From a virus: a stretch of DNA of 64,000 nucleotides. The stretch is taken from IMG/VR virus record IMGVR_UViG_3300043449_002292, positions 32,001-96,000 of that record. One strand, 5' to 3'. Positions 4,374 through 28,132 of the stretch are shown one piece after another; within the stretch, counting starts at the first letter, position 1, and every line of letters begins with the position of its first letter. The notes under the pieces were generated by a model, which worked only from the letters and a program-made list of their open reading frames with translations, did not search any database and was not told where the DNA came from. A program made the position numbers and the translations under genes.

Positions 4374-5791
4374 TTTGACTCCTTAATACCGGCAAGCTTG
4401 CACCATCTGTCGACCGCAGACTCTGTGAATATTACCGATCCCCCGACTAGACTATTAAGCTCTTTACGTAGTTCGTCCTGGTTGATAACCCTAAGGTTTG
4501 TTTTACGTTCGGAGTCCGAGGAGCCTGCCGTGATTGATGGACGACCGAGTATGTTGGACAGTGAATGACGACGAACTATCGCAGACCCACCACCGGCAGC
4601 GCCAGCGCCACCTGCGGCTGCGACACCGGCTGCAGCCGCACCAGCACCAGCACCTGCGGCTGCAGCCGCTGAGGCACCCGCTGCAGCCGCACCGCCGCCC
4701 GCGACAGCGGCTGGTGTTGGACGAGAAATTCCCAGAGAAGCCCCGATCGATGCGAGTCCTCCGAAAACTAGAGCCTCCGCCGGATCAAAAGTGACCAGAT
4801 TCGTTGAGGTGTCCGTGGTCTTCTGCGCCATCATCTCGAAAACTTTCTTGAACTCATCGAGGCTGAGAAGCTTGAGATCGTCGGAGAATTGTGAAGCCGT
4901 AAGGCTCGTGGGCTTGATTGCTGGAGTTCCTCTAAACTTCCTATAAATGCTTACTATAAACCCTTCAGCCGGCGACGAAATCTTGAAGTTACGTCCAACC
5001 ACACTATCGATATCGAACCCTTTGCTAGCAGCGAGAGATGCAAGTGTGGAGTCGAGCTTTGCGCGGCTCGGCGCCGATACCTTGAGAAAGAGCTCCTTCA
5101 CGCCACCTGGTGCGGGTTTAGGTTCACCATCATCTCCCCTGCCGACGACGTAAATTTTATCGGCAGAAACGTTCTCAAGCGGTAGAGTCGAAGACACCCC
5201 AGGCGCTGACAGCATGACATCGAAGCCTTCATCAGCCGATGCCTTTCCGATCACCATGAATTTCCTACCTTCATGATAACGATCAAAATCACCGAGAGCG
5301 GAAATTTCAGAGAATGGAACGCGGCGTGGAGACCTGAGCTTTGCACCGCCGCCCCTTAGTTTGATGAGATCGAAAACTATCGCTTCGTCAGTGAAGAACT
5401 TTAGCTCTGTCTTGAAATCGTTGATGATCAACAGACGAACTGCGTCCATCGCATTGAGGATTGTGAATTTCAAAACCTCGGCTGCTGTGATGGCATCGAC
5501 CAACTTTCTCTGGCTTCTATCGAGACCGATCGCGCTGAGGATTGGGTCCGGTTCCGAAGAAATGGCCTCCTCGAGCTTATCGATCGTCCCACGTAACGCC
5601 GCTTTCGTGTTGGACATCTTGGAGATCGCGGGAAGATCTTCGATGTCTGATAAGGGCTCAATCGATTGACGTGCAGCTTCGAATGATGCACGATCGACCG
5701 CCTCACTCATGAGGTAGTCTAAATTTCTGCGCTTGAGAGAACGGGAGGCGTCGTCATACCTACGTCCCATGTTACGCCCAATGTTGCTCAT
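4370..5791 (-). CDS. Hypothetical virion-associated protein with Ala/Gly-rich tract
   Basis: 473-aa ORF after an ATACTTA motif; C-terminal RWCKLAGI. Confidence 0.75.
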   Translation of the reverse strand: MSNIGRNMGRRYDDASRSLKRRNLDYLMSEAVDRASFEAARQSIEPLSDIEDLPAISKMSNTKAALRGTIDKLEEAISSEPDPILSAIGLDRSQRKLVDAITAAEVLKFTILNAMDAVRLLIINDFKTELKFFTDEAIVFDLIKLRGGGAKLRSPRRVPFSEISALGDFDRYHEGRKFMVIGKASADEGFDVMLSAPGVSSTLPLENVSADKIYVVGRGDDGEPKPAPGGVKELFLKVSAPSRAKLDSTLASLAASKGFDIDSVVGRNFKISSPAEGFIVSIYRKFRGTPAIKPTSLTASQFSDDLKLLSLDEFKKVFEMMAQKTTDTSTNLVTFDPAEALVFGGLASIGASLGISRPTPAAVAGGGAAAAGASAAAAAGAGAGAAAAGVAAAGGAGAAGGGSAIVRRHSLSNILGRPSITAGSSDSERKTNLRVINQDELRKELNSLVGGSVIFTESAVDRWCKLAGIKESK

Positions 5792-5817
5792 CTTGTGAGA
5801 ATACCCCTGCTGGGAAC

Positions 5818-5824
5818 TAAGTAT
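5818..5824 (-). promoter_or_regulatory. Putative late promoter ATACTTA
   Basis: 27 nt upstream of ATG 5791. Confidence 0.55.
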
Positions 5825-5825
5825 T

Positions 5826-6284
5826 TCAGATCAGTGCTATCTGGCGAACCTTTACACCCGCTTCTCTCAAGAGATCGATGCCTGACGTGTCACGATAGCG
5901 TTCGATGTAGACTATCTCATCGATTCTAGCATTAACAATCGCCTTCGCGCACATACGACATGGGCTGAGACTCACGTACATCTTCTTACGTTTCGGGCTG
6001 TTAAAGTCGAGTTTGATGAGAGCATTTACCTCGGCATGGATAAACCCTGATTCACCGGCGGCGGAGGATTCACGTGTGTTTGATCCGCCAGCGTGATCCC
6101 CGTTGTATCCGAGGGAGAGCAACTGCGTGTTATCATCCGTGACCACGATTGCGGCCACCTTAAAGTTGGGATCTGGGGATCTTTTTGAGATTGTTCGGAC
6201 TACGTCAGCCCAGATAAGATCCCAGCTGGGACGATCGTCGATTGGATTACAGCGTAAATCGTTGAGAAAATCGTTATGGGTCAA
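5826..6284 (-). CDS. dCMP deaminase
   Basis: GYNG, HAEVNAL and SPCRMC zinc-deaminase motifs. Confidence 0.92.
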   Translation of the reverse strand: MTHNDFLNDLRCNPIDDRPSWDLIWADVVRTISKRSPDPNFKVAAIVVTDDNTQLLSLGYNGDHAGGSNTRESSAAGESGFIHAEVNALIKLDFNSPKRKKMYVSLSPCRMCAKAIVNARIDEIVYIERYRDTSGIDLLREAGVKVRQIALI

Positions 6285-7129
6285 GCCCGCTCCTGATCAA
6301 AGATTGTCTCTATGTTAACATTTTTTGGCAGGCTGAAACCCGCTGCCTTTCGATGCCCACCTCCGCCGAACCTCTTGGCGACCTCGCTCACGTCGGAATC
6401 CTCATGATGAGCGCGGAGGCTCACCTTCACCTGCCGCGTCTCGTGGTCATAGAACCAGATCACCGCGAAGTCGCACTTGGGAGACAGGGCCGCCCCAATC
6501 TCCGACATCCAGTGCGATGAGTTAACGACAAGAACGTCCTTTCCATCTATCTTACGTGGTGTGGCATGCTTCGCTATCTTTGAGATGACAGTCTTCGAAT
6601 ACGCGAGGATGTAAGCCCCTCGTTCCTGGGCGTCATCCACCGCAGAATCGTCGAGGTATTTATCGAACTCCTCGAAATCGAATGGGACCATGTCGAAGGC
6701 TGCCGCGAACTCCTTTGAGTATGGGATCTGCCACTTCCAGAGATCACGGTCCTCGATGAATTTTATCATGCGAGGCGCCTCCTTACCTGGATGGAAGAAA
6801 TTCCAGGCAAGCATCGCACCGCTGTGATTCATATCAAATCGGGTGCATGAGACGTCGTGAAGCTCAACCATCGCTGACTTGTGGTGATCGATGATGAGGA
6901 AGTTGCGTGCTTCCTTTATCAGCTGCTTCGTGGTCACGTTGTCATACGAGAAATCCAAAACCACGACGTTCTTACCCTTCACGTCGGGTGGGGTTTCACC
7001 ATACTTCGCTGCGTGATATTCGGCTCGATCTCCAAGGAGCTTCCAGGCAGAGTAAGCTGCGCCGAATCCATCAGTGCAGCTCGCGTGGTAAATAACAAGA
7101 TCGACGCTTGAAGGTTCCAGCATGCTCAT
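6281..7129 (-). CDS. DHH/DHHA1 phosphoesterase (NrnB-like)
   Basis: YHASCTDG, VLDFS, IDHH, GGGGHRKAAG. Confidence 0.9.
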   Translation of the reverse strand: MSMLEPSSVDLVIYHASCTDGFGAAYSAWKLLGDRAEYHAAKYGETPPDVKGKNVVVLDFSYDNVTTKQLIKEARNFLIIDHHKSAMVELHDVSCTRFDMNHSGAMLAWNFFHPGKEAPRMIKFIEDRDLWKWQIPYSKEFAAAFDMVPFDFEEFDKYLDDSAVDDAQERGAYILAYSKTVISKIAKHATPRKIDGKDVLVVNSSHWMSEIGAALSPKCDFAVIWFYDHETRQVKVSLRAHHEDSDVSEVAKRFGGGGHRKAAGFSLPKNVNIETIFDQERA

Positions 7130-7149
7130 GTGCTCTCCGGACTAAAGTA

Positions 7150-7725
7150 TTATCCTACAGTCCCGTTCGAATTGCACATGATTGGATGGTGGCGAAAACA
7201 CCTTGGTTCATAGAGATTTTTTCCGCCAACCTCGATGAGCTTATCATCATCGACTAGCTTCGTAGTATAAAAAGCGTCATCACCGCAAATCGGGCATACA
7301 GCTGGACATTTCTCGATCCTCGTCGCGTAGGGAAGAAGCTCGCTGACCTCATCGAACGGCTCACACTTCGCGCTAAGGTCAAGGGTTGCGATTAGAACGG
7401 AAGTCCCATTCTTGATGATCTGGCGAACCGCCGGTGCCACCCCGTCTATCATGAAGGCTTCATCTATGGCCACCACATCGACATCATTCTGAAGGTCATG
7501 CAGGTGGTTCAGAATGCTTTTCCCGGATGTGACGCAGCGAGCTGGCCACTTAGCTCCGGAGTGAGTGCAGATCTGAGATTCTTCATAACGTGAGTCCATT
7601 GACGGCTTGTAAACTTGCACGTTACGTTCTTGAAGTTTGAGACGCTCCAACGACGCAATCAAGCGCGAAGTTTTAGAGCCCCACATCGGACCGCAGAAGA
7701 TGATCAGCTCTGGATTTTTAGCCAA
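7150..7725 (-). CDS. tdk: Thymidine kinase (TK1 family)
   Basis: GPMWGSKT P-loop, IDEAFM, CPIC...RCFRH zinc site, IEVGG...YEP lasso. Confidence 0.88.
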   Translation of the reverse strand: MAKNPELIIFCGPMWGSKTSRLIASLERLKLQERNVQVYKPSMDSRYEESQICTHSGAKWPARCVTSGKSILNHLHDLQNDVDVVAIDEAFMIDGVAPAVRQIIKNGTSVLIATLDLSAKCEPFDEVSELLPYATRIEKCPAVCPICGDDAFYTTKLVDDDKLIEVGGKNLYEPRCFRHHPIMCNSNGTVG

Positions 7726-8125
7726 GCTTCACCGCCCTTCCGTAATCATCCTCGAGCCTTTTCGGAACATCATCAACACGATCGCCTACCTCTATCACTT
7801 GACTATCCTCAAGAGCTTCGAGCCTGTATGGGCACTCAGATTGCACATACAGCACGTCCATAGGACGCAGGACCTTCATTCGAAAAGGATGCTTTTCTGA
7901 ATTCTCCAGAGTTTTTTCATTTCCAAATGAAACTTTAATTTTCCCACTAAGAACGAAGAATACCTCATTCTTAACGTTGTGATACTTCAAGCTTGTGCGC
8001 TCTCCCTTCCTGATGTGGATGAGCTTACCGTGAATATGACTCAAGGCATGCCAAACCCGAGTTTCGCCCCACGGTTTGCTTTCGGATATTGAGCTTGAAA
8101 CCCAAGCTTCCTTAGGCGCTGGCAT
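7718..8125 (-). CDS. Cupin, resembling the C-terminal type II mannose-6-phosphate isomerase domain
   Basis: KPWG, TSLKYHNVKNEVFFVLSG, RLEDDYGR; probable start ATG 8125. Confidence 0.8.
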   Translation of the reverse strand: MPAPKEAWVSSSISESKPWGETRVWHALSHIHGKLIHIRKGERTSLKYHNVKNEVFFVLSGKIKVSFGNEKTLENSEKHPFRMKVLRPMDVLYVQSECPYRLEALEDSQVIEVGDRVDDVPKRLEDDYGRAVKLG

Positions 8126-9128
8126 TGAGGCCCCACCAATCGAGGGTGAGCTGTAAACCCTCTTCAAACTGCACCTGAGGTTCCCAGCTGATCGCCTGCT
8201 TCGCGATTGTCACATCAGCGAGCGTGTCCCGAACGTCGCCGAGCCGGGCCGGTGCATTGCTCACCTCGAGGTTCGGGAACTTCAGACGGAGCATATCGAG
8301 AACCTCGATATTCGCGAGTGACTTACCGGATCCCACGTTAAATGCATGACCGCGAAGGGGATGCTCACACTCAGCGGCAAGCCGGTTCGCACGTGCGACG
8401 TCCTTCACGAAGACGAGATCGCGAGTCTGGTAACCGTCACCGTCGGAACGAAGCGGACGTCCCTCCTTCAGGGCGGAGCACCACGCTGCGACTGCAGTGG
8501 AGTAGGGTGACTTACCGTCCTGGCCCGGTCCGTAAACATTGAAGTAACGAAGGCAGACGCTACGCTGATCGTAGAGACGACCGAAGAGGGTCAGATAGTC
8601 CTCGATCATCCGCTTCTGAAGACCGTAGGGCGACTGTGGGTTCGAAGGCGCGAACTCCGTGGTCGGCAGCTGGTCGATCTCTCCGTAGACTGCAGAGGAG
8701 GAGGAGAAAACGAACTTCGTTCCCGTTCCACGGATCGCGTCTAGAAGGGCGAGAGTTCGAGTGACGTTGAGGTCATTCGACTCGAAAGGATGCTCAACCG
8801 AGAAACCCACACGCGGCATCGCTGCAAGGTGGAAAATCACACCATAACGACCCTCCTTTGAGCGCTCCAGGACCTGCTGACATGCGAAGTCACCCTCGAT
8901 CACAAGAATCGAGCCCTCCACGCGCGAGGACTCAGGGTGCTTACTCTCAAAGGCATCGAGCAGATCCGCCGGGGAAGCTCGGAAGCTAAGACCGATAAGA
9001 GCATCGAGGGAGCCATTCGACATATCATCTACGATGTCTATCGTGTAACCATTCTCACGCAGCTCCCGAACAACATGGGAACCGATAAAACCACAACCAC
9101 CCGTAACCAGAGCACGCTTGCTATTCAT
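8112..9128 (-). CDS. NAD-dependent NDP-sugar epimerase/dehydratase (extended SDR, GalE/WbpP-like)
   Basis: TGGCGFIG, HLAA, SSSAVYG, YGLQK, LRYFNVYGP, GDGYQTRD. Confidence 0.93.
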   Translation of the reverse strand: MNSKRALVTGGCGFIGSHVVRELRENGYTIDIVDDMSNGSLDALIGLSFRASPADLLDAFESKHPESSRVEGSILVIEGDFACQQVLERSKEGRYGVIFHLAAMPRVGFSVEHPFESNDLNVTRTLALLDAIRGTGTKFVFSSSSAVYGEIDQLPTTEFAPSNPQSPYGLQKRMIEDYLTLFGRLYDQRSVCLRYFNVYGPGQDGKSPYSTAVAAWCSALKEGRPLRSDGDGYQTRDLVFVKDVARANRLAAECEHPLRGHAFNVGSGKSLANIEVLDMLRLKFPNLEVSNAPARLGDVRDTLADVTIAKQAISWEPQVQFEEGLQLTLDWWGLNASA

Positions 9129-9131
9129 TCA

Positions 9132-10115
9132 TCACCTCTTGAAAAAATGATAACCCTTGAAATCAGTCGAGAGCAGAAATCTAATTGACAGCTTTTCATC
9201 CTTCATCTTCCTCGCTCTAACCGAGCAGAGGATGTCACACCAATCCCTGATCAATGACTGTGAAAGCTGTTCATCAGTCTGATCGATCAGTTTCGGGGAG
9301 ACGAATACCATCCCGTCCCTGATCACGCCTTCGTTGGTCGAACGAACAGCCTCCTCAACGCGTATCAGATCGACTATCGGAAAGACCTTCGGATACGGCT
9401 GCATCGGACGACCGAAGTTATCGCTGGAATTCGCGATCGCGTCCAGCATCTCGAAGTCCCTCTCGTAGCAGTGGAGCGAGTTCGAGGTGTGGACATACTC
9501 ACCGAGCTCGACCCCCAGCTCATTCGCCATGATCTCCTGCATCGTGGTGAATGCCGGAACGTCGTAGGCGATGCCGAGGATGATATCGCTCGACCGCATG
9601 TTGACGTGGAGGTGGAGCTTGCCCTCACGGATAAAGAACTGGAGCGCGAGGGTGCACGGGACATCCTTCACTGCGTGGAGGGAGTCGTCAGGGGTCCTGA
9701 TGTGGATCACCGCCCGACGGGAGTCGGGATCCTTCCGGAGCTCCTCCTTCACGTAATCCCACTGGACGATACCGCCTGCCGCGATCCGATCATGCGGTCG
9801 GAAGATTCGAGCCCCGTAGGCGGAGTTCGCCGTCTTGCCGTCATCGCTGATTCCCTTCCAGAACGATGCGTAATACGAGATCCACTCCGTGGAATCGTTA
9901 CCGCTCAGATACCACAGAGTCTCCGCGACGAAATATGACAGGGAGAAATTTCGAGCTTCCACAAATGGGAGACGATCACGCGGATCCTTAATCCTGAACT
10001 GAACGCCCAGTTTCTCCTTGATCTTCATCCCACGAGGAGATGAAACAAACTCAGACTCATCCCTGACCATCCTACAAAGATCAATGTAGGCCTGCGTGAA
10101 ATTACCGTATGTCAT
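9132..10115 (-). CDS. Thymidylate-synthase-fold enzyme with a dCMP-type specificity residue (dCMP hydroxymethylase-like)
   Basis: DSRRAVI, DVPCT, MRSSDIILGIAYD (Asp at the E. coli ThyA Asn177 position), SLHCYE; ATG 10115 overlaps the kinase stop (ATGA). Confidence 0.88.
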   Translation of the reverse strand: MTYGNFTQAYIDLCRMVRDESEFVSSPRGMKIKEKLGVQFRIKDPRDRLPFVEARNFSLSYFVAETLWYLSGNDSTEWISYYASFWKGISDDGKTANSAYGARIFRPHDRIAAGGIVQWDYVKEELRKDPDSRRAVIHIRTPDDSLHAVKDVPCTLALQFFIREGKLHLHVNMRSSDIILGIAYDVPAFTTMQEIMANELGVELGEYVHTSNSLHCYERDFEMLDAIANSSDNFGRPMQPYPKVFPIVDLIRVEEAVRSTNEGVIRDGMVFVSPKLIDQTDEQLSQSLIRDWCDILCSVRARKMKDEKLSIRFLLSTDFKGYHFFKR

Positions 10116-10639
10116 GTATTCATCTCCAACCACGTGAGAATCTCGGTGATCTCCCTGTTAAGATTCTCGTCATCGACCCAAAGTGTGAGGCACTCGCATT
10201 TCGTCCACGCTTGGAATTGCTCATAGAGACCGTCCAGCTTCCTGAGGGCTTCCTCGTCAATGTAATCGTGCAGGTCGTCACGTATCCCAGAGTAGCTCTT
10301 GCGACGGCAGATAACGAACTTACCGCCAGCCTCAGCAAACTTGTCATCAATCTTCCTGAGGATCTCAAAGTCAGTGTCCCTGTTGAAGAACTGCGCATAC
10401 ACCCACTCGGAGGCATGATTTCGGTCCATGATCACGCTGGTTCCCGTCTGCAGGAGGAACTCGGTCAGGAACGTGGATCCGTAAATCAGCAGATTCTTGA
10501 AGTAGCTCGGATCGTGAAGATCCGCATACCATTCGCCCTTGTTCTTGAAAGTAGGAACTCCGAGAAGTCTCGATAGCTCAGCGGCGATCTCGGACTTACC
10601 CGTCATGTCTGGACCCTCGAGTCCGATCAAAATTGCCAT
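10112..10639 (-). CDS. dNMP kinase (thymidylate-kinase-like)
   Basis: EGPDMTGKS P-loop, MDRNHASEWVY. Confidence 0.85.
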   Translation of the reverse strand: MAILIGLEGPDMTGKSEIAAELSRLLGVPTFKNKGEWYADLHDPSYFKNLLIYGSTFLTEFLLQTGTSVIMDRNHASEWVYAQFFNRDTDFEILRKIDDKFAEAGGKFVICRRKSYSGIRDDLHDYIDEEALRKLDGLYEQFQAWTKCECLTLWVDDENLNREITEILTWLEMNT

Positions 10640-10640
10640 T

Positions 10641-11696
10641 TCAGCCTCTCTTCGCGTGTTGCTCGATTATATCAATCTTATGCCCAGGGCTAAAATCGAC
10701 AACCTTGCGAAGGGCATTTTCCTGCTGTTCGATAATTTCGACTCTCTCCTTCACGCTCATCTGCGAGATTCTCATAACGCAGCGAATCACATCTGATGGA
10801 TCATCAACGAGAAAATCGCCTAAGCCGACGGGTCTAGCGTGAACGTATTCATTCGGAATCAGTGAGATGACGCCGGCTTGGATCGCCTCCGTGAATCGCA
10901 TCGTGATGTTGCCGTAAGGTGTGTAATCATCACGTGTGATGTGGGTCACGGCCACGGAGTTGTTGATGACGCCGAAGATCTCCTTGTAAGCAAGTCGATG
11001 ACCGAAAGCGATGTTCGGATTCTCGCGAAGCAGGATGCTTGGATCCTTGCGCTCAGGGCTCCTCTCAAGCCAGTTACCCCAGACCTTCGTCTGGATCCCA
11101 CGCTCCCGTAGTGCCTGACTTGGGTTCGAGTAATACTTTTTGAACTGCGGGTCACGATCGTAGTTGTTACCCACATAGGTGTAGTTGTATGAATACTCAG
11201 CGGGCTTGAAGAGCCGTCGTGCCGAGGAAGCCCATGGCATCGAGATTCGAGAACGCGTCTGCTCACGTGGATTGATGCAAGCGTCCGCGAGCTGAGCATT
11301 CGGCCAGCGAAGCTCCTCCTCCGGGGTCATCTTCAGATCGCCGTCATGGATGATGATGGGAACGCCCTTCTTGTGATAGTGGTCGAGGAGCTCACACTGC
11401 CGTCGGTAGTCCGGCTCGGTCGCCCGATCGCCCCCGAGGCTTGCATCATTCTTCCAGGTCGGCCAGCGCCACTCAACGAAGAGAACGTCACCTTCCGGAA
11501 ATCCAGTATCGTCGTATTCGACACCGGAATAGGGTTCGTCGTCTCGACGCTTCTGCACCTGGACCATGGTGTGGCCGCGGCGCTGCATCTCATCGACCAG
11601 ATCAACTCGACCACCACGATAGTGGTCGGGGGTGTTCGAAACAGTTTGCTTTTCGAAAGGGGTTACAAAGCCCCAGAATGAGTATAGAATTCGCAC
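10641..11696 (-). CDS. GT-B glycosyltransferase resembling T4 beta-glucosyltransferase
   Basis: 351 aa; C-terminal NITMRFTEA...FLVDDPSDVI...ERVEIIEQQ resembles my recollection of the BGT C-terminus (FITLRVWET...FYVNNRAELI...RKEMLSIQ); gene context. Confidence 0.7.
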   Translation of the reverse strand: MRILYSFWGFVTPFEKQTVSNTPDHYRGGRVDLVDEMQRRGHTMVQVQKRRDDEPYSGVEYDDTGFPEGDVLFVEWRWPTWKNDASLGGDRATEPDYRRQCELLDHYHKKGVPIIIHDGDLKMTPEEELRWPNAQLADACINPREQTRSRISMPWASSARRLFKPAEYSYNYTYVGNNYDRDPQFKKYYSNPSQALRERGIQTKVWGNWLERSPERKDPSILLRENPNIAFGHRLAYKEIFGVINNSVAVTHITRDDYTPYGNITMRFTEAIQAGVISLIPNEYVHARPVGLGDFLVDDPSDVIRCVMRISQMSVKERVEIIEQQENALRKVVDFSPGHKIDIIEQHAKRG

Positions 11697-11704
11697 CTTT
11701 TACC

Positions 11705-14700
11705 TCACATGACCTTGATTTTCTTACCTTTTGTCGACAAACCGAAGTCGGAACGATCGACCTCAGCAACGCACAGCGTGTACGGCTCGAAACCAATCTT
11801 ACCGTCCCAATCCCACATGAACATCTTTTCCGTGTTTCCAGCCTCACCCATCACCTGAAGCATGAGGTAGGGCTTACCGTTCTTCGTCTTCTTCTCGACC
11901 GAGCTCACGACGACGAACCAGTAGATGTCAAGTCTCTCCCAGTTATCGATGGAGTAAACCTCCTTGTCCTTGAATTTCTGACGAAGTTCTGGGGAGATGA
12001 GGGAGACCGGATCCATCTTACCCGAGAGCTCGATCTGCATGAGAGCCATCTCACGACGAGTCCACTCGGGCATGCCCTCAGTCTCGACGAGGAGCTCACG
12101 GAAGCGCTTGACACCACGCTGCGGATCCTTCTTAGCCCATTTCTTGATGTCCTCCGCGTTCTCGATAAGAACATGATGCATCTGCTTCCAGGATGAGAAC
12201 TGCTTACCCTTACCGACAATGCCCATCGATTCGAACCCACCGGCTTTGATGAGAGCCTCAAGGGCCCGACGATTGAACTTCGAGGGTCGCCACTGACCGT
12301 CTTCCTTCCATAGCATCTCCTCGATGGACCTATACGGACGGCATGCCACGATCTCCTCGATCGCTGTCTCACCGACGCCCTTGATTGTGTTGAAGGACGG
12401 AATTAGGAGCTTACGCTCAGCATCGACGGACCATTGGTTCGTGGAGAGGTTGATATCGACGTTGCCGATATCATAGCCCATCTTCTTCACGTCGGAGATT
12501 GCCTGGGCACGGTCGTCCGGGTTTCCGATCATCGATTCCATGTAAGCGCAGAGCCACTCAGCCTCGTAGTATGTCAGGAGCCAGGCGCAGTAGTAGGAAT
12601 CGATCGCATAGGCGAGAGCGTGGGAGAGGTTGAAGCCGTAACCTGCGAAGAAGAGGATGTCGTCCCAGAGCTTCGAGGCCACCGACTCCTTGATCCCGTT
12701 CCCGACAGCGCCGTTGACGAAGCTGTCCTTCATCGCCTTCGCCTTCTTCATCGACTCTTCAGGGTTACCGCCCTGACGCTTCAGAATGTTCTTTCGGACC
12801 TTATCACACTCGGACTTCGGGAATCCTGCCACCACGTTGCAGAGCTGCATGAGCTGCTCCTGGAAGATGATGCAGCCGAATGTTGGCTCCAGCACCTGCT
12901 TGATGAGTGGGTGCTTGTAATCAATGTTACGCGGATTCGCCTTCGCCTCGAGGTAGAGCTTATCAACCTTCGCCGCTAGCGGACCTGGCCGGAAGACTGA
13001 AGTGAGTGTGGCGATGTCGATGATCGATCGTGGCTTCGCATTCTGGAAGAGACGCTGGGCACCCTTGCTGGTGAGCTGGAAGACACCCGGGGTGCGGGTC
13101 GTCGCCTCATGGTAGACGTTCTCATACACTCTCTGATCATCAAAATCGAGCACGTCGTTCGACATATACTTATCGAACCATGCCTTGACGTCCTTGAACT
13201 TCGGGTCCTTGAGGCCATGATGACGTTCAAGGATGAGCTCGATCGTTCGACGGATCATGCGCAGAGTTTCGAGCCCGAGGAGGTCGAACTTAACCCAACC
13301 AAGCATCTCGAGATGCTTGTAGTTCATGCCCTCGACCCAGGGGGTCTGCTGCTCGCCCTTCGCCATGATGAGTGGCATCCGCTCCTGGATACGTTCGGAG
13401 ATGATGACACCTCCGGCATGACGACCGAGGGCCTTATTCTGCCGGAAGAGAACCTTGATCGACTCGGAGACCTGCGGGTACTTGTCGATGAATTCCCGGA
13501 AACTCGGGCTGTGCTCGTAGCTCTCCTCGAACGTCAGGACGAAGAGGTTCTTGTCGTCGCCGACCTTGCGGGTCGCATCCATGACCTCCTTCTCCACGGT
13601 CTTCAGGGAGGCATTCACCTCCTCGAGCGGGATGTCGTACAGTCTCGAGATATCGCGAACGAGGGTCTTCAACTTGAAGGTGTTGTAGTTCGAGATTGGA
13701 ACGATGTTCTCACCGCCGAACTTCGAACGAAGGATCGCCAGGAGCTGATCGCGGTTCTCAACGTCAGTATCGATGTCAGGTAAACCCTCACGGTCCGGAG
13801 ACAGGAACCGCTCGAAGAGCAGACCATACTTGATTGGATCAACATCGGTGATCCCGAGCACGTAGCAGACGAGCGAGCCCGCACCGGAACCTCGACCAGG
13901 ACCGATGAACATCTCCTCCTTCGCAGCCGAGATGATCTCCTTCATCGTGAGGAAGTAGGAGGCGAAATCCTTCTGCTTGATAACATCGATCTCGTAGTCT
14001 GCACGCTCAACGTAGTCCTGACGGCCAGCGAGACCCTTCGCGGCAAGACCCGCCTTCACAGCATCAACAAGTGCCTCATTCGCGGTCTTACCCTTCGGGA
14101 TGACGTAACTCGGAAGCTTAACGGAGCGATCAGGCTGCACGTCACCGATCTCCTCATGGGCGAGATGCCAGGTGCGCTCGACAGCCTTACGGATGAGATC
14201 CTCCTGGCCATGGTAGAACGCTTCGGTCTGCCGGGATGTAAGGAACTCGTCCCAGACCTGGGACGCGTTCTTCGGGTAGAGCTCACACTTCAGCTGGTCC
14301 TTGCTCTTCGGGATTGAATCAGCCGAAAGCTCGGCGTAGTTGAGCCAACCGAGCTTCTTGTAGATCTCACGCTCACGCCAGTGCTCAGGGCGGGCGTAGT
14401 GGGAGTCGCAGGTGACGACAAGCTGATCCGTCATGCCCTGCCGCTGGGCAAACTCGATGAGAGCGCGGTTGACGATGTGCTGCGCCGGGAGCCGATTGAA
14501 CTGAAGCTCCAGCATCACGTTCTTCCGACCAACGGCCCACGCGAGGCCATCGAAGGAGTTACCGATGCGGTTGATGACGCGCTCCATCATCGATGGATCG
14601 TCGAGTAGTCGGCTGTTGAGACTGTCGAAGCTGTGTTCCTGCAGCTCACGGAAAACCTCAAAGGCAAGCGGACCACCGACGCAAGCAGTCGAGACGATGA

Positions 14701-15373
14701 AGTTGTCGTCCTCCTGTGCCTCCTTCAGCATCCGAAGATCGACACGCGGGAACTTGTAGAAACCCTCGGAGTATCCGCGGCTCACAAGACCGAAGAGTCG
14801 CTCGAGACCCTTGCTGTGTCGAGGTAGGACCACGAGATGGTGACGACGGTTGATCGGATTGAAGTGCTTTGTGGACTTCGTCTCGTCCTCATTCTCGATC
14901 GTGAGGGCCGAGTTATCGGTGTCGATGCCGATCGTCTCGTCATTCTCATCGGTTGTGGCAACAATGGGAGTCACCACATTCTCGGGCTTTACCTTCGCTT
15001 TCGCGTGGCTCTTGCGATCACGCTTGAGCTGCTGCCACTCATCGTACTCACCGCGCCAGGCATCGAGATCCGGGTGGATATACATCTCACAACCTGGGAT
15101 GAGCTTGAAGTCCTTCCCAGCCTTTCGCATCTTATCGACGTGCAGCCACGCATGACCGAACGAGTTCATGTGACCGTGGTTCGTCATCGACCAGCCGTCG
15201 AGGCCATTCTCCGCGCAGAAGTCGATGTGCTCCTGTGGAAGACCGAGTCCGTCGAACACGCTGAAGCCGTCATGGGAATGCAAGCCGAAGAACTTCTCCG
15301 GACGCTTCAATTCGCTTCCATCTGCCATTTTATCTCCTGGGTCAACTATATCAGGACCCAGGATGGTTTGCAC
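11705..15373 (-). CDS. dnaE: DNA polymerase III alpha subunit (family C)
   Basis: PHP domain HSH..FSVFDG, GPGRGSGAGSLV, FERFL, PDIDTD, KFDLLGL, YGFNLSHA; no intein seen. Confidence 0.97.
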   Translation of the reverse strand: MQTILGPDIVDPGDKMADGSELKRPEKFFGLHSHDGFSVFDGLGLPQEHIDFCAENGLDGWSMTNHGHMNSFGHAWLHVDKMRKAGKDFKLIPGCEMYIHPDLDAWRGEYDEWQQLKRDRKSHAKAKVKPENVVTPIVATTDENDETIGIDTDNSALTIENEDETKSTKHFNPINRRHHLVVLPRHSKGLERLFGLVSRGYSEGFYKFPRVDLRMLKEAQEDDNFIVSTACVGGPLAFEVFRELQEHSFDSLNSRLLDDPSMMERVINRIGNSFDGLAWAVGRKNVMLELQFNRLPAQHIVNRALIEFAQRQGMTDQLVVTCDSHYARPEHWREREIYKKLGWLNYAELSADSIPKSKDQLKCELYPKNASQVWDEFLTSRQTEAFYHGQEDLIRKAVERTWHLAHEEIGDVQPDRSVKLPSYVIPKGKTANEALVDAVKAGLAAKGLAGRQDYVERADYEIDVIKQKDFASYFLTMKEIISAAKEEMFIGPGRGSGAGSLVCYVLGITDVDPIKYGLLFERFLSPDREGLPDIDTDVENRDQLLAILRSKFGGENIVPISNYNTFKLKTLVRDISRLYDIPLEEVNASLKTVEKEVMDATRKVGDDKNLFVLTFEESYEHSPSFREFIDKYPQVSESIKVLFRQNKALGRHAGGVIISERIQERMPLIMAKGEQQTPWVEGMNYKHLEMLGWVKFDLLGLETLRMIRRTIELILERHHGLKDPKFKDVKAWFDKYMSNDVLDFDDQRVYENVYHEATTRTPGVFQLTSKGAQRLFQNAKPRSIIDIATLTSVFRPGPLAAKVDKLYLEAKANPRNIDYKHPLIKQVLEPTFGCIIFQEQLMQLCNVVAGFPKSECDKVRKNILKRQGGNPEESMKKAKAMKDSFVNGAVGNGIKESVASKLWDDILFFAGYGFNLSHALAYAIDSYYCAWLLTYYEAEWLCAYMESMIGNPDDRAQAISDVKKMGYDIGNVDINLSTNQWSVDAERKLLIPSFNTIKGVGETAIEEIVACRPYRSIEEMLWKEDGQWRPSKFNRRALEALIKAGGFESMGIVGKGKQFSSWKQMHHVLIENAEDIKKWAKKDPQRGVKRFRELLVETEGMPEWTRREMALMQIELSGKMDPVSLISPELRQKFKDKEVYSIDNWERLDIYWFVVVSSVEKKTKNGKPYLMLQVMGEAGNTEKMFMWDWDGKIGFEPYTLCVAEVDRSDFGLSTKGKKIKVM

Positions 15374-15387
15374 GAGTTACGAGTCGA

Positions 15388-15999
15388 CTAGAGATCGTCC
15401 TTTGGCGTGTCGTATCGATTCAGGACGACCATATTCTTGTAAAGATCCTCCCGAGCTTGCGCTCGTTGAGCGCGACCCAGTTGGATCCGCGCTTCCAGAT
15501 CTTTCTGATAATTTGGGTCATGCTTACGTGACAGTGCTGCGTGCCACTCGTCCGATGCGTCCCTCATGCGCTTCGAGTTCGCGGCGCGCTCTCGCTCGAG
15601 AGCCCGTTCCTCGGCGGCCTCTTTATTACGTTGTTTTTGCGCCTCAGCCTCTTTCTTCTTGGCGGAAGTTATCTTGGCTTGAGCCTCTGAATGATAATCC
15701 CTGATCGCTTTGGCCGCGGCGATTCTATATTCCTTTCTCTCCCTTGGGTTGCCGTTCCACTCACGTGGGAGATACTTCGCATCGTAGAGCCCTCTTTCAA
15801 ACTCGCCCAACCACTTTGCAGGATCCCAGCCTCTGTCCATCTTATCCCTCAGCTTCGGCCAAAGATCATTCTCTGTGGTAAAATGCTTCTCCGCCTTATC
15901 TTCACCCGACTTGAACCAATCGAAAAATCCTTCGTTCAGTCTGAGCTCGCGCGTGATCTCTTCACGAATAATCCGCTTGATTCTTGAATCATTTATCAT
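15388..15999 (-). CDS. Hypothetical protein with IIREE leader
   Basis: MINDSRIKRIIREEITRELRLNEG; ATATTTA 23 nt upstream. Confidence 0.75.
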   Translation of the reverse strand: MINDSRIKRIIREEITRELRLNEGFFDWFKSGEDKAEKHFTTENDLWPKLRDKMDRGWDPAKWLGEFERGLYDAKYLPREWNGNPRERKEYRIAAAKAIRDYHSEAQAKITSAKKKEAEAQKQRNKEAAEERALERERAANSKRMRDASDEWHAALSRKHDPNYQKDLEARIQLGRAQRAQAREDLYKNMVVLNRYDTPKDDL

Positions 16000-16021
16000 T
16001 GTGGGCTGACCTCACAAACGT

Positions 16022-16028
16022 TAAATAT
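16022..16028 (-). promoter_or_regulatory. Putative late promoter ATATTTA
   Basis: Upstream of ATG 15999. Confidence 0.55.
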
Positions 16029-16036
16029 CATCTGAA

Positions 16037-16474: not shown

Positions 16475-16490
16475 AACTATAGCGTGAGTC

Positions 16491-16951: not shown

Positions 16952-16966
16952 TCCCTCTCCTATCGC

Positions 16967-24256: not shown

Positions 24257-24640
24257 TCAGTATCCGTCTTTTAGTCTTCGACAGATTTTCTCGTGCTTCT
24301 TGAGGTATGCTTCATGCAGCTCATCAGGAGTGACACCCACGAGCTTCAGTGTCGTAAAGAAGTACTTCATCGCATCGACGATCTCCTCAAGGAATGCCTC
24401 ACGATCGAGATGAGGAACGTCGGTCTGACGATGAGGCTTGGCATTCTTCAGCTCCTGCAGAGCCTCGAACATCTCCTCCACACCGCGAAGGGTCACGTCA
24501 CGGACAAGCGTCTGTGATTGCTTCGTCGAGAGATCGATCGGCCACTGGGGGTAGTAACCCTCGAAGCGTTCACAAAGGAGCTGCATGAACTCCTCGCGAA
24601 GCTCGAACATCTGATCGAGCTTGTCAGTTGACGTCGACAT
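24257..24640 (-). CDS. All-alpha NTP pyrophosphatase (dimeric dUTPase / T4 gp56 dCTPase-like)
   Basis: VEEMFEA, FLEEIVDA, C-terminal RRLKDGY; probable start 24640. Confidence 0.8.
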   Translation of the reverse strand: MSTSTDKLDQMFELREEFMQLLCERFEGYYPQWPIDLSTKQSQTLVRDVTLRGVEEMFEALQELKNAKPHRQTDVPHLDREAFLEEIVDAMKYFFTTLKLVGVTPDELHEAYLKKHEKICRRLKDGY

Positions 24641-24866
24641 TCGCCATGCCCTCGGCGGCGAGCTCATCAGCCTTGTCCGAGAGACGCTGAACAGCATCCA
24701 GGAAGGCCTGATTGTCAGCGTCGTTGATCATGAGCTTGCTCCCGTCGACCGTCAGTCGAAGGGTCCTGAGATTATCGATGATGTCAGTTCCAGTCAGCAG
24801 GGCGAGCTGAAGAAGGTCGACGATGCGGACGATAGCCTGATCAGAAAGTGTAACTGTCTCGTTCAT
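24624..24866 (-). CDS. Hypothetical protein
   Basis: MNETVTLSDQAIVRIVDLLQLALLTGTDIIDNLR; AGGAG RBS. Confidence 0.7.
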   Translation of the reverse strand: MNETVTLSDQAIVRIVDLLQLALLTGTDIIDNLRTLRLTVDGSKLMINDADNQAFLDAVQRLSDKADELAAEGMANVDVN

Positions 24867-27499: not shown

Positions 27500-28132
27500 C
27501 TAGTATCCGAACGCCTCAATCGTATGCTGAAACGGCTTACCCTCGATCTCTCGAACCTGCTGCAGCATCTCCTCCGCTAGCCAGCAGATCTCGCGTTGAG
27601 CGTCTGGCTTCATTCGAAGTCCGAGGAAATGGTTGAAAGATCGCCAGTTGAACATCACGTCCATGGTGATCTGGTTGCCGTATGGAAGGTAGAAGCGTGC
27701 TGATTCTTTGGCTCGCTTTCGATCCATTCCCCCGTCAACAAGCCTCTGCAAGGTCTCATGGTAGCGCATGATCGCGTCTTCCATAAATGCGATATACCTT
27801 GACTGCTCCTCGATCGACCAATCCTTTGGCAGGTAGTACTTGTCATCCTTCAGCTCCTTGTACCGAGCCGACTCGGCATTGATCGAGACCCCGATACGAT
27901 GCTTGAGGAGCTGGACATGGACGCTTGTATCCACTGTTACTAGGAATTGCAGGCTCGACTTTTCAAAAACCGTGTGATGGCCCTGCTCCGCAAGCATTTT
28001 TAGAAGTTGCGGAATTCTGTTACGCTTATCATTGGTAATTTCTCGTGATGTCGACGTCCACGCAGACAATGCGTGCGTTTCGTCTGATCCGTACCACCCA
28101 GTAAGCTGAACCTTGTTATCCTGAAATGACAT
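27500..28132 (-). CDS. thyX: Flavin-dependent thymidylate synthase
   Basis: GHHTVFE, KHRIGVSINAESARY, AKESARFYLP, NWRSFNHFLGLR..DAQREI. Confidence 0.93.
   Translation of the reverse strand: MSFQDNKVQLTGWYGSDETHALSAWTSTSREITNDKRNRIPQLLKMLAEQGHHTVFEKSSLQFLVTVDTSVHVQLLKHRIGVSINAESARYKELKDDKYYLPKDWSIEEQSRYIAFMEDAIMRYHETLQRLVDGGMDRKRAKESARFYLPYGNQITMDVMFNWRSFNHFLGLRMKPDAQREICWLAEEMLQQVREIEGKPFQHTIEAFGY

What the first reader, a model, noticed from the sequence alone, without database searches (positions are those of the whole stretch)
5826..15373. DnaE-coupled operon for a sugar-hypermodified cytosine with its own nucleotide-sugar enzymes
Seen: nine abutting or overlapping genes: dnaE, BGT-like glycosyltransferase, dNMP kinase, TS-fold enzyme with the dCMP-type Asp, NDP-sugar epimerase, cupin isomerase, thymidine kinase, DHH phosphoesterase and dCMP deaminase. 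Elsewhere in the window are a dCTPase-like pyrophosphatase (24257) and a separate ThyX (27500). Known: T4 makes glucosyl-hmC using gp42 (dCMP hydroxymethylase), gp1 (dNMP kinase), gp56 (dCTPase), dCMP deaminase and alpha/beta-GT, drawing on host UDP-glucose and a family B polymerase. Inference: the same logic is rebuilt here around a family C polymerase. The embedded epimerase and cupin suggest the sugar is not plain glucose, so this may be an undescribed glycosyl-(hydroxymethyl)cytosine that protects against restriction and CRISPR nucleases.
Basis: partly seen in the sequence, partly recalled or inferred. Interest (0 to 1): 0.9.

Follow-up and report, generated by a model that had tools for sequence, protein, structure and literature searches.

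The report
Phage sugar-tagged hydroxymethylcytosine DNA pathway
An uncultured giant phage carries, right behind its DnaE-type DNA polymerase, a T4-like gene set that most likely replaces cytosine in its DNA with hydroxymethylcytosine and then attaches a sugar. The sugar supply is set by the phage's own UDP-sugar epimerase, so this is a new variant of a known anti-restriction strategy, not a new principle.

Summary
Nine co-oriented, abutting minus-strand genes (5826-15373) are dCMP deaminase, DHH phosphoesterase, thymidine kinase, small cupin, GalE-like SDR, TS homologue, P-loop nucleotide kinase, GT-B glycosyltransferase and DnaE. ThyX (27500) and a gp56-superfamily NTP pyrophosphatase (24257) lie nearby.

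The TS homologue matches T4 gp42 at 12 of 12 active-site positions. It lacks the D169N change that marks 5-hydroxycytosine synthases, and it has the deoxy-type Arg/Ser instead of MilA's Lys/Ala. It is therefore a predicted dCMP hydroxymethylase.

The glycosyltransferase family (492 clusters) matches only T4 beta-glucosyltransferase in the PDB, and only over its C-terminal, sugar-nucleotide-binding half.

Synteny was counted in 36 distinct metagenomic loci:
- Conserved: kinase 36, TS 35, DnaE 34, epimerase 33.
- Clade-specific: cupin 18, second SDR 15, UDP-galactopyranose mutase 13.

The sugar is unidentified. A 4-epimer such as Gal or GalNAc is plausible, and the cupin's role is unsupported.

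Precedents exist: Enterococcus phage VPE25 (DnaE, TS, BGT) and epimerase-dependent glycosyltransferases acting on 5hmC. This scan already found the same family on other DNA (e1-5318885, e1-5318900) and reached the same verdict.

Verdict: new variant of a known kind, all by inference, with no chemistry shown.

The parts
11705..15373 (-). DnaE-type (family C) DNA polymerase alpha subunit, 1222 aa, with PHP, core, finger and HhH domains
   Evidence: Pfam PHP, DNA_pol3_alpha, DNA_pol3_finger and HHH_6. phrog_405 at 6.8e-224. Below 30% identity to any GenBank phage DnaE. Lies next to the glycosyltransferase in 34 of 36 loci.
10641..11696 (-). GT-B glycosyltransferase, a distant relative of T4 beta-glucosyltransferase; predicted DNA 5hmC glycosyltransferase
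   Evidence: The family profile A1 hits only T4 BGT in the PDB, at E 1.1e-6, with R267/E270 aligned to BGT R269/E272. hhalign gives 94% probability over the C-terminal 129 columns. AF2 model pLDDT 93. Top Foldseek hit is T4 BGT 1c3j, 1.2e-10. No tblastn hit in 50,697 phage records. 492 clusters at 50% identity in metagenomes.
10112..10639 (-). P-loop nucleotide kinase of the dTMP-kinase/YorR type (phrog_761); predicted 5hm-dCMP kinase
   Evidence: P-loop GPDMTGKS. phrog_761 at 1.3e-9, the same PHROG as RB69p045 at 1.6e-45. Best PDB hit is YorR, 0.013. Found with the glycosyltransferase in 36 of 36 loci. No similarity to T4 gp1.
9132..10133 (-). Thymidylate-synthase-fold enzyme; predicted dCMP 5-hydroxymethylase
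   Evidence: Best PDB hit is MilA CMP hydroxymethylase, 1e-47. Matches T4 gp42 at 12 of 12 active-site positions (E58 R126 R127 D143 C146 T147 R166 S167 D169 D177 H207 Y209). The same signature occurs in 36 of the 37 distinct family TS homologues aligned, the window's included; one has Gln at position 127.
8112..9128 (-). GalE-like NAD-dependent UDP-sugar 4-epimerase (SDR)
   Evidence: Pfam Epimerase, 1.8e-48. TIGR01179 galE scores 171.7 bits, below its cut-off of 262. Best PDB hits are UDP-Glc and UDP-GlcNAc 4-epimerases. GxxGxxG, SSS and YxxxK motifs are present, and Thr sits at the E. coli GalE Y299 gatekeeper position. Found with the glycosyltransferase in 33 of 36 loci.
7718..8125 (-). 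Small PMI-like cupin of unknown activity (likely start ATG at 8125; the ORF is open to 8167)
   Evidence: PF01050 scores 24.4 bits against a cut-off of 23.6; Cupin_2 at 2.9e-5. phrog_7851 at 6e-17. AF2 pLDDT 90. Only generic cupin fold hits. No invariant His in family alignment A5. Present in 18 of 36 loci, all in one GT clade.
7150..7725 (-). Thymidine kinase (TK1 type)
   Evidence: Pfam TK, 6.7e-37. NF003296 at 1.1e-43. P-loop GPMWGSKT. Present in 23 of 36 loci.
6281..7129 (-). DHH/DHHA1 phosphoesterase (NrnA/RecJ-like); possibly turns oligonucleotides into mononucleotides
   Evidence: Pfam DHHA1 and DHH. phrog_4771 at 3e-80. DHH and GGGH motifs present. Present in 23 of 36 loci.
5826..6284 (-). 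dCMP deaminase
   Evidence: Pfam dCMP_cyt_deam_1, 1.8e-19. phrog_174 at 1.1e-37. HAE and PCxxC zinc motifs present. Present in 33 of 36 loci.
24257..24697 (-). All-alpha NTP pyrophosphohydrolase of the T4 gp56 superfamily; candidate dCTPase
   Evidence: phrog_12184 at 5.5e-14, phrog_173 at 7.4e-8 and phrog_18650 at 0.005. T4 and RB69 gp56 hit phrog_173 and phrog_18650. Pairwise BLAST to gp56 gives E 0.002 over 42 aa. No Pfam, NCBIfam or MazG hit.
27500..28132 (-). ThyX flavin-dependent thymidylate synthase, the separate dTMP route
   Evidence: Pfam Thy1, 2.3e-37.

Best explanation
The window comes from an uncultured giant myovirus. The IMG/VR record is 143 kb and estimated 43% complete. The operon is a pre-replicative cytosine-replacement pathway followed by post-replicative glycosylation.

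Inferred steps:
1. The gp56-like NTPase (24257) and the dCMP deaminase drain dCTP and dCMP. The deaminase also feeds dUMP to ThyX for dTMP synthesis, and TK and the DHH esterase salvage nucleotides.
2. The TS homologue converts dCMP to 5-hydroxymethyl-dCMP using methylene-tetrahydrofolate.
3. The adjacent dTMP-kinase-like P-loop kinase makes the diphosphate, and host NDK makes 5hm-dCTP.
4. The DnaE replicase incorporates 5hmC in place of C.
5. The BGT-like GT-B transferase then flips out 5hmC in duplex DNA and attaches a sugar from a UDP-sugar.
6. The GalE-like 4-epimerase sets or maintains the donor pool, most simply UDP-Gal or UDP-GalNAc made from the host's UDP-Glc or UDP-GlcNAc.

The cupin is a clade-specific accessory of unknown role. 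The expected outcome is DNA that resists restriction enzymes and Cas nucleases.

What is shown: gene identities, active-site signatures and synteny. What is inferred: every enzymatic step, the DNA acceptor and the sugar.
For: TS homologue:
- It shares 12 of 12 active-site residues with T4 gp42, as do 35 of the 36 other distinct family homologues; one has Gln at position 127.
- L143D and N177D are present and D169 is retained. The tested 5hoC synthase RB69 gp48 has E143 and N169 instead (rule from PMC13326640).
- Arg and Ser replace MilA's Lys133 and Ala176, which is the deoxy-substrate type (PMC5175136).
- A separate ThyX covers dTMP synthesis.

Glycosyltransferase:
- T4 BGT is the only PDB sequence match, at E 1e-6, with the UDP-binding Arg and Glu aligned.
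- hhalign gives 94% probability.
- T4 BGT is the top fold hit, and T4 AGT is also among the top hits.

Synteny in 36 distinct loci, with GT identity down to 33%: kinase 36, TS 35, DnaE 34, deaminase 33, epimerase 33.

Kinase: it falls in the same PHROG as the kinase next to the first DNA glycosyltransferase of RB69.

NTPase: it falls in the same PHROGs as gp56.

Epimerase: it has 4-epimerase motifs, not dehydratase motifs, and its best PDB hits are UDP-hexose and UDP-HexNAc 4-epimerases.

Precedents:
- Epimerase-dependent glycosyltransferases on 5hmC have been reconstituted (bioRxiv 10.1101/2023.12.21.572611).
- VPE25 combines DnaE, a TS homologue and a BGT, and its cytosines are modified (PMC4999554).
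- The sister clade adds a UDP-galactopyranose mutase between TS and GT, which implies flux through UDP-Gal.
Against: The similarity to BGT covers only the donor-binding half. The acceptor (N-terminal) domain has no detectable sequence relative, so DNA as the acceptor rests on context alone.

A 4-epimerase is reversible and could simply top up UDP-Glc. Its score is below NCBIfam's GalE cut-off.

The kinase is not related to T4 gp1, and its substrate is unknown.

The NTPase has no Pfam hit, and its specificity is unknown.

The record is only 43% complete, so missing or extra pathway genes cannot be judged.
Confidence: 0.62

Rival explanations
1. This is plain glucosyl-5hmC, as in T4 and probably VPE25. 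The transferase uses UDP-glucose. The reversible GalE-like epimerase only tops up UDP-Glc from UDP-Gal during the heavy demand of modifying a DNA of about 330 kb at about 55% GC, or it serves another process.
For: The only sequence relative of the glycosyltransferase with a known function is a glucosyltransferase. 4-epimerases are freely reversible (established knowledge of GalE). No other sugar-nucleotide gene (Glf, NTP transferase, second SDR or second GT) is present in the 143 kb held.
Against: The epimerase is kept with the glycosyltransferase in 33 of 36 loci. Sister clades add a UDP-galactopyranose mutase or a second SDR beside the glycosyltransferase, which points to non-glucose donors in the family. 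In reconstituted metavirome clusters, paired glycosyltransferases needed their epimerase in order to act.
Confidence: 0.17
2. The phage makes 5hmC DNA, but the glycosyltransferase, epimerase and cupin glycosylate something other than DNA, such as a virion protein, a host envelope polymer or a small molecule. The DNA would then carry bare 5hmC.
For: The N-terminal acceptor domain of the glycosyltransferase has no detectable similarity to BGT. Fold hits to lipid, sugar and small-molecule GT-B enzymes score almost as well as BGT. Small PMI-like cupins are common in phages without any known link to DNA.
Against: The glycosyltransferase sits between dnaE and the kinase/TS pair in essentially every locus, at 36, 35 and 34 of 36. 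This is the same neighbourhood as T4 43/42/beta-gt and RB69 kinase/GT/TS. No structural or envelope genes are interleaved.
Confidence: 0.08
3. The TS homologue makes a different C5 product, such as 5-methyl-dCMP, 5-hydroxy-dCMP or hm-CMP for a nucleoside metabolite. The downstream chemistry would then differ from the T4 scheme.
For: Overall identity to T4 gp42 is only about 26%. The best PDB match is MilA, a CMP enzyme of antibiotic biosynthesis. The kinase / first GT / TS trio resembles the 5hoC clusters of RB69, DLP3 and RL38J1.
Against: D169 is retained, whereas every tested 5hoC synthase has Asn there. L143 is Asp, not a bulky hydrophobic residue, which argues against a methylase. Arg126 and Ser167 mark the deoxy type, unlike MilA's Lys and Ala.
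Confidence: 0.06

Closest known systems
T-even phage glucosyl-5hmC system (T4 gp42, gp1, gp56, Cd, alpha- and beta-glucosyltransferase)
   Same: Both have a pre-replicative dCMP hydroxymethylase with identical active-site residues. Both have a gp56-superfamily NTPase and a dCMP deaminase. The glycosyltransferase is homologous to BGT in its UDP-sugar-binding domain. In both, the hydroxymethylase and GT genes lie next to the replicative polymerase gene.
   Different: The polymerase here is family C (DnaE), not family B. The kinase is dTMP-kinase/YorR-like and unrelated to gp1. dTMP comes from ThyX, not from Td. The N-terminal domain of the glycosyltransferase is unrelated in sequence. The phage encodes its own GalE-like epimerase, and in this clade a cupin, so the donor is probably not host UDP-glucose. 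TK and a DHH esterase sit inside the operon.
Enterococcus phage VPE25/VFW (Andrewesvirinae)
   Same: It has a DnaE-type polymerase, a TS homologue with the same D143/D169/D177 signature (the window's best PHROG, phrog_5131, is also VPE25's), a BGT-family transferase and TK within one 12-kb region. Its DNA has been shown to be modified at cytosine (PMC4999554).
   Different: VPE25's glycosyltransferase is a close BGT orthologue, reported as about 40% identical to T4 BGT. The window's glycosyltransferase gives only E 6e-4 against it. VPE25 has no GalE-like epimerase or cupin and has a dUTPase. It is an 86-kb siphovirus of a Gram-positive host.
Metavirome MT/TET (5mYOX) 'subclass II' GT plus epimerase clusters (Pyle et al., bioRxiv 10.1101/2023.12.21.572611)
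   Same: A DNA glycosyltransferase is paired with a sugar-nucleotide epimerase. In those clusters GT activity on 5hmC depended on the epimerase, and the products were Hex-, HexNAc- or HexA-5hmC. That paper also notes GT-B enzymes beside thymidylate synthase homologues, polymerases and epimerases in metagenomes.
   Different: Those clusters make 5hmC after replication (C5-methyltransferase plus TET) and at specific sites. Here 5hmC would be made as a nucleotide and would replace all C. I could not test whether this GT family was among theirs.
Glycosylated 5-hydroxycytosine systems of RB69, DLP3 and Rhizobium phage RL38J1 (Lee et al., NAR 2026, PMC13326640)
   Same: Both have the gene trio of a phrog_761-type nucleotide kinase, a first DNA glycosyltransferase and a MilA-like TS homologue. 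Both have phage-encoded donor-sugar genes; RL38J1 has a UDP-galactopyranose mutase, as does the sister clade here.
   Different: Those TS homologues are flavin-dependent 5hodCMP synthases marked by D169N. The window's enzyme keeps D169 and matches gp42. The sugars there are Araf or Gal-Glc on an ether oxygen, and the glycosyltransferases are unrelated GT4-like enzymes.

Membership tests
[quoted passage not shown] | Catalytic Cys (E. coli C146), Glu58, the Arg126'/Arg127 and Arg166 phosphate clamp, and the His207/Tyr209 ribose contacts | tested here: met
   All are present in the window protein and in 35 of the 36 other distinct family homologues; one has Gln at position 127.
[quoted passage not shown] | Asp in place of Asn177, which confers cytosine specificity | tested here: met
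   IAYD aligns to LPFN. The rule comes from PMC5175136 and PMC13326640.
[quoted passage not shown] | An acidic residue in place of Leu143, which admits water and gives a hydroxymethyl instead of a methyl group | tested here: met
   DVPC aligns to LAPC. The rule is quoted.
[quoted passage not shown] | Deoxyribose type: Arg126' and Ser167, not MilA's Lys133' and Ala176 | tested here: met
   DSRRAV and RSSD here, against MilA's DSKRAV and RAND (PMC5175136).
[quoted passage not shown] | Converts dCMP and methylene-THF to 5hm-dCMP | not testable with these tools
   This needs an enzyme assay or in vivo nucleoside LC-MS.
5-hydroxy-dCMP synthase (RB69 gp48 type) | Asn in place of Asp169 (D169N), the diagnostic residue | tested here: not met
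   The window and all family members keep Asp169, while RB69 gp48 has Asn (rule).
T4 beta-glucosyltransferase family (CAZy GT63) | GT-B two-Rossmann fold | tested here: met
   AF2 model with pLDDT 93.4 and pTM 0.90. The top Foldseek hits are T4 BGT 1c3j and 1qkj, E about 1e-10, TM 0.64-0.68.
T4 beta-glucosyltransferase family (CAZy GT63) | C-terminal UDP-sugar-binding motif with Arg269 and Glu272 | tested here: met
   The profile aligns the invariant R267 and E270 (NITMRFTEAI) to BGT's ITLRVWETM.
T4 beta-glucosyltransferase family (CAZy GT63) | Full-length sequence homology, including the N-terminal DNA/acceptor domain and the catalytic Asp100 | tested here: not met
   hhalign aligns only the C-terminal 129 columns. 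There is no hit to the BGT PHROG 7922. Pairwise BLAST gives E 0.12. An invariant D118-x-D120 follows a beta strand, as D100 does in BGT, but I could not superpose the structures residue by residue.
T4 beta-glucosyltransferase family (CAZy GT63) | Transfers a hexose to 5hmC in duplex DNA | not testable with these tools
   Only context supports it: the gene sits between dnaE, the kinase and the TS homologue in 34-36 of 36 loci.
UDP-hexose 4-epimerase (GalE/WbpP type SDR) | GxxGxxG NAD site, the Ser/Thr-Tyr-x3-Lys triad, and no Asp-Glu dehydratase pair | tested here: met
   GGCGFIG, FSSSSAVYGE and YGLQK are present. The best PDB hits are UDP-Glc and UDP-GlcNAc 4-epimerases, E down to 2.5e-51.
UDP-hexose 4-epimerase (GalE/WbpP type SDR) | Score over NCBIfam's GalE equivalog cut-off | tested here: not met
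   TIGR01179 scores 171.7 bits against a cut-off of 262.3. It is GalE-like, not a certified GalE. Thr at the Y299 gatekeeper position suggests that N-acetylated or other substrates are possible; that last point is my own inference.
Type II phosphomannose isomerase cupin (PF01050) | Pfam gathering score | tested here: met
   24.4 bits against a cut-off of 23.6, which is marginal. The C-terminal EDDYGR motif resembles ManC from my own recollection.
Type II phosphomannose isomerase cupin (PF01050) | Conserved metal ligands of the cupin motifs (His/His/Glu/His) | tested here: not met
   No invariant His occurs in the 18-sequence family alignment. The invariant polar residues are K41, K46, E48, C92, Y94 and E106. 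The fold search gives only generic cupins.
T4 gp56 dCTPase/dUTPase (all-alpha NTP pyrophosphohydrolase) | Sequence membership in the gp56 family | tested here: inconclusive
   It hits gp56's PHROGs: phrog_173 at 7.4e-8 and phrog_18650 at 0.005. The best hit, however, is phrog_12184. There is no Pfam MazG or NCBIfam hit. Pairwise BLAST against gp56 gives E 0.002 over 42 aa.
T4 gp1 dNMP kinase | Sequence homology to gp1 | tested here: not met
   BLAST gives E 1.6, and no gp1 homologue is found in the 143-kb record. The kinase belongs instead to phrog_761, the dTMP-kinase/YorR type.

The most novel reading that the evidence does not exclude
The donor is not a simple 4-epimer. In this clade the GalE-like SDR and the His-less cupin, whose conserved residues are Lys, Lys, Glu, Cys and Tyr, would act together on a UDP-4-keto intermediate, much as RmlC or CapF do. 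That would make a rare hexose which the BGT-like enzyme puts on 5hmC. Sister clades would swap the cassette, using a UDP-galactopyranose mutase to give galactofuranosyl-hmC or a second SDR to give another sugar. This single giant-phage lineage would then carry a family of undescribed 5hmC glycoforms, generated by module exchange around a fixed DnaE-kinase-GT-hydroxymethylase core.
Probability: 0.2. Interest if true: 0.75.

Novelty: new variant of a known kind. Interest (0 to 1): 0.55.

Why it matters
If the prediction holds, a widespread lineage of uncultured giant phages replaces all cytosine with a glycosylated 5hmC. The lineage is represented by contigs up to 290 kb from many metagenomes, and its glycosyltransferase family has 492 clusters at 50% identity. 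The sugar would be chosen by exchangeable phage-encoded donor modules: an epimerase alone, or an epimerase with a cupin, a UDP-galactopyranose mutase or a second SDR.

That would extend the T4 paradigm to DnaE-replicated phages. It would add a second, very divergent branch of BGT-like DNA glycosyltransferases that could be useful as 5hmC-labelling enzymes with new donor specificities. It would also bear on which restriction, type IV and CRISPR defences can act on these phages. In practice, such DNA may be under-represented or mis-called in some sequencing libraries.

It does not reveal a new principle. The pre-replicative hydroxymethylase route, BGT-type transfer, the DnaE context and epimerase-dependent glycosyltransferases are each already documented.

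Tried and rejected
1. 5-hydroxycytosine pathway (RB69/DLP3/RL38J1 type). I considered it because of the kinase / first GT / MilA-like TS trio. I rejected it because D169 is retained in every family member.
2. CMP hydroxymethylase for a nucleoside metabolite (MilA type). Rejected on the Arg/Ser deoxy signature and on the replication context.
3. Canonical PMI or an NDP-sugar ketoisomerase as the identity of the cupin. phmmer against the PDB gave only E of about 0.3. The AF2 model gave generic cupin hits, and no metal-binding His is conserved. The activity remains unassigned.
4. Cultured relatives. megablast of the operon and tblastn of the glycosyltransferase against 50,697 phage records found nothing. 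The DnaE is below 30% identical to any of them.
5. Further sugar genes in the phage's own 143-kb record. Searches for GLF, NTP_transferase, GT-A, GT1 and a second SDR found none, and MazG and gp1 also gave nothing. This is uninformative, because the record is 43% complete.
7. Promoter and terminator scan of 4000-17000. It found fewer sites than in shuffled sequence. This is weakly compatible with a single transcription unit and is not evidence on its own.
8. Fused forms of remote GT-family members. They gave leads only and are listed under things noticed.

Full report
WHAT IS THERE. The window is bases 32001-96000 of a 142,859-bp IMG/VR virus record that CheckV rates 43% complete. The genome is therefore probably above 300 kb. 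The window also encodes two tail-sheath paralogues of about 1000 aa, RecA, a DnaB-like helicase, a ribonucleotide reductase, ClpP and ThyX.

Between 5826 and 15373 there are nine minus-strand ORFs separated by -22 to +20 nt. The consensus scan found no excess of promoter- or terminator-like sites in this region.
- DnaE (PHP, core, fingers, HhH)
- a protein with only a weak Glyco_trans_1_2 hit
- a P-loop kinase (phrog_761, 'thymidylate kinase')
- a thymidylate-synthase-fold protein
- an NAD-dependent epimerase
- a small cupin
- a TK1-type thymidine kinase
- a DHH/DHHA1 esterase
- a dCMP deaminase

Catalytic motifs are intact: HAE and PCxxC, DHH and GGGH, P-loops, GxxGxxG and YxxxK.

THE TS HOMOLOGUE. 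Its best solved relative is MilA, the CMP 5-hydroxymethylase of mildiomycin biosynthesis (E 1e-47). True thymidylate synthases score about 1e-23. I aligned it with reference enzymes taken from annotated records:
- E. coli ThyA
- T4 gp42 (dCMP hydroxymethylase)
- RB69 gp48 (5-hydroxy-dCMP synthase, shown experimentally in PMC13326640)
- SPO1 gp29 (dUMP hydroxymethylase)
- the VPE25 enzyme

At twelve active-site positions (E. coli numbering 58, 126, 127, 143, 146, 147, 166, 167, 169, 177, 207, 209) the window protein reads ERRDCTRSDDHY. This is identical to T4 gp42 and to VPE25. The other enzymes read as follows:
- ThyA: ERRLCHRSDNHY
- SPO1 gp29: ERQDCNRSDNHY
- RB69 gp48: ERRECTRSNDHF

The published rules are these. 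N177D specifies cytosine. An acidic residue at 143 gives hydroxymethyl and not methyl. D169N marks the flavin-dependent 5-hydroxycytosine synthases (PMC13326640). MilA's preference for ribo-CMP rests on Lys133' and Ala176, where deoxy enzymes have Arg and Ser (PMC5175136). The window protein has Arg and Ser.

Of the 37 distinct TS homologues from this phage family, the window's included, 36 carry the same twelve residues; one has Gln at position 127. The enzyme is therefore predicted to be a dCMP 5-hydroxymethylase. It is predicted not to be a thymidylate synthase, which is ThyX's job here, nor a methylase, nor a 5hoC synthase, nor a CMP enzyme. This is a signature-based inference; no activity was measured.

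THE GLYCOSYLTRANSFERASE. It has no PHROG or NCBIfam family and no tblastn match in 50,697 GenBank phage records. It has many metagenomic relatives:
- 136 clusters at 90% identity in the word-indexed search
- 492 clusters at 50% identity at E<=1e-3 in the exhaustive search, with 132 of them at E<=1e-30

A profile of 37 family members matches only one protein family in the PDB, T4 beta-glucosyltransferase (E 1.1e-6). The invariant R267 and E270 fall on BGT's UDP-binding R269 and E272. Profile-profile comparison with T4 and VPE25 BGT gives 94% probability, but only over the C-terminal 129 columns.

The AlphaFold model is confident (pLDDT 93). It is a GT-B fold whose top PDB matches are T4 BGT, with T4 alpha-glucosyltransferase also high. 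Other GT-B enzymes score nearly as well.

So 'BGT-like' is correct for the donor-binding half. The acceptor half is a family of its own. DNA as the acceptor is inferred from context.

THE OTHER PARTS.
- Kinase. It shares its only PHROG (761) with RB69p045, the 'nucleotide kinase' next to the first DNA arabinosyltransferase of RB69. Its best PDB hit is YorR, as reported for the DLP3 counterpart (Table 1). It is unrelated to T4 gp1.
- NTPase. The 146-aa ORF at 24257 matches phrog_12184, phrog_173 and phrog_18650. The latter two are the PHROGs of T4 and RB69 gp56. It has no Pfam hit, so it is a gp56-superfamily NTPase of unknown specificity.
- Epimerase. It is GalE-like. Its best PDB matches are UDP-Glc and UDP-GlcNAc 4-epimerases, and it has epimerase, not dehydratase, motifs. 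It scores below NCBIfam's GalE cut-off. Thr occupies the position of E. coli GalE Tyr299. By the 'gatekeeper' idea, which I take from my own knowledge, this would allow bulkier substrates such as N-acetylhexosamines.
- Cupin. It passes PF01050 only marginally (24.4 bits against 23.6). It belongs to a large group of small phage cupins. No His is conserved across its 18 homologues. Its fold matches only generic cupins. Its activity is unknown.

SYNTENY. Contigs that carry homologues of the glycosyltransferase were fetched and searched with the window's proteins. There are 36 distinct loci with at least 6 kb on both sides, and their GT identity to the window ranges from 33% to 89%. Within 8 kb of the glycosyltransferase these loci carry:
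- kinase 36
- TS homologue 35
- DnaE 34
- dCMP deaminase 33
- GalE-like epimerase 33
- TK 23
- DHH esterase 23
- cupin 18
- a second SDR 15
- UDP-galactopyranose mutase 13
- an MT-A70 methyltransferase 10

On a maximum-likelihood tree of the glycosyltransferases, all cupin-bearing loci form one clade. The mutase marks a subclade of that clade, with one further occurrence elsewhere. The second SDR marks the deeper branches. Because whole genomes co-diverge, this shows modular cassette change along the lineage. It does not show co-evolution of the glycosyltransferase with its donor.

The fixed core is therefore DnaE, kinase, glycosyltransferase, hydroxymethylase, epimerase and deaminase, and the sugar accessories vary. 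In the window's own record no other glycosyltransferase, SDR, mutase or sugar nucleotidyltransferase was found, but more than half of the genome is missing.

MECHANISM. The best reading, at 0.62, is the T4 scheme rebuilt with other parts:
1. The dCTP/dCMP pool is depleted and diverted by the NTPase and the deaminase.
2. dCMP is hydroxymethylated.
3. The cluster kinase and host NDK phosphorylate the product.
4. DnaE incorporates 5hmC.
5. The BGT-like enzyme glycosylates the DNA after replication, using a UDP-sugar whose C4 configuration is set by the phage epimerase. Gal or GalNAc are the simplest guesses.

Rivals:
- Plain glucose, with the epimerase only balancing the pools (0.17).
- A non-DNA acceptor (0.08).
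- A different C5 product (0.06).

COMPARISON AND NOVELTY. Each ingredient is documented elsewhere:
- T4 places genes 43, 42 and beta-gt together.
- Enterococcus phage VPE25 combines DnaE, a same-signature TS homologue, a BGT and TK, and its cytosines resist bisulfite conversion and restriction (PMC4999554).
- Pyle et al. reconstituted metavirome glycosyltransferases that need a paired epimerase to put Hex, HexNAc or HexA on 5hmC. They also noted GT-B enzymes beside thymidylate synthase homologues, polymerases and epimerases.
- Lee et al. described kinase/GT/TS trios with phage-made donor sugars on 5hoC.

What is new here is the particular combination and the lineage. These are uncultured giant myoviruses with a very divergent BGT-like family and exchangeable donor cassettes around a hydroxymethylase core. 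This scan has already met the family twice on other DNA. The follow-ups e1-5318885 and e1-5318900 reached the same reading, which I re-derived independently here.

I rate it a new variant of a known kind, with interest 0.55.

Noticed in passing
window 24917-26144 (with 24257-24697): A base-excision cluster sits beside the gp56-like NTPase. It holds an Fpg/Nei glycosylase (269 aa; H2TH and Fapy_DNA_glyco) and a 141-aa HhH-GPD glycosylase (Pfam 8.2e-9; no PHROG). Relatives L003 and L004 also have an Fpg/Nei gene upstream of dnaE. This may be repair of deaminated or oxidised modified cytosine.
   Followed up: partly
window 3308-4108: An Fe/Mn superoxide dismutase C-terminal domain (Pfam 5.5e-18) in a 266-aa protein that has a long N-terminal extension. 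It is conserved downstream of the operon in 30 of 36 related loci.
   Followed up: partly
window 16037-16474; L040 4496-9466: An HNH endonuclease-like ORF (phrog_7545, 1.5e-9) lies about 660 nt upstream of dnaE. In the L040-type relatives dnaE is split into two ORFs (609 and 745 aa) with a 311-aa ORF between them, which suggests a mobile-element insertion.
   Followed up: no
P0179, P0249, P0200 (remote members of the glycosyltransferase family): Some distant family members are fused to other domains: a class I SAM methyltransferase (P0179), a NodU/CmcH-type carbamoyltransferase C-terminal domain (P0249) or an HTH_58 domain (P0200). These fusions hint at further tailoring of the sugar and at DNA binding.
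   Followed up: partly
L002 1836-3159 and 13870-14472; L058 8760-10004: Relatives carry extra genes beside the cluster. L002 has a HAD hydrolase and a sugar-1-phosphate nucleotidyltransferase upstream of dnaE. The mutase clade has an MT-A70 adenine methyltransferase between the DHH esterase and the deaminase. L058 has a B12-binding radical SAM enzyme directly upstream of the glycosyltransferase.
   Followed up: partly
window 53018-56032 and 56071-59184: Two adjacent tail-sheath paralogues of about 1000 aa each (Phage_sheath_1C / Phage_sheath_1). Large proteins with no Pfam hit lie at 39701-43216, 43529-46636 and 46880-50956.
   Followed up: no
window 28334-29368, 29374-30162, 38468-39670: A short glutamine-synthetase-like protein (344 aa), a ClpP-like protease with an N-terminal extension, and a 400-aa protein with only a weak DNA_pol_A match (1.3e-5) in a phage that already has DnaE.
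   Followed up: no
window 8112-9128, residues about 44-84 of the epimerase: The GalE-like epimerase and its phage orthologues carry an insertion of about 20 residues between the NAD-binding strand and the next conserved block, relative to E. coli GalE. T. maritima GalE also fails to align across this stretch. Its role is unknown.
   Followed up: no
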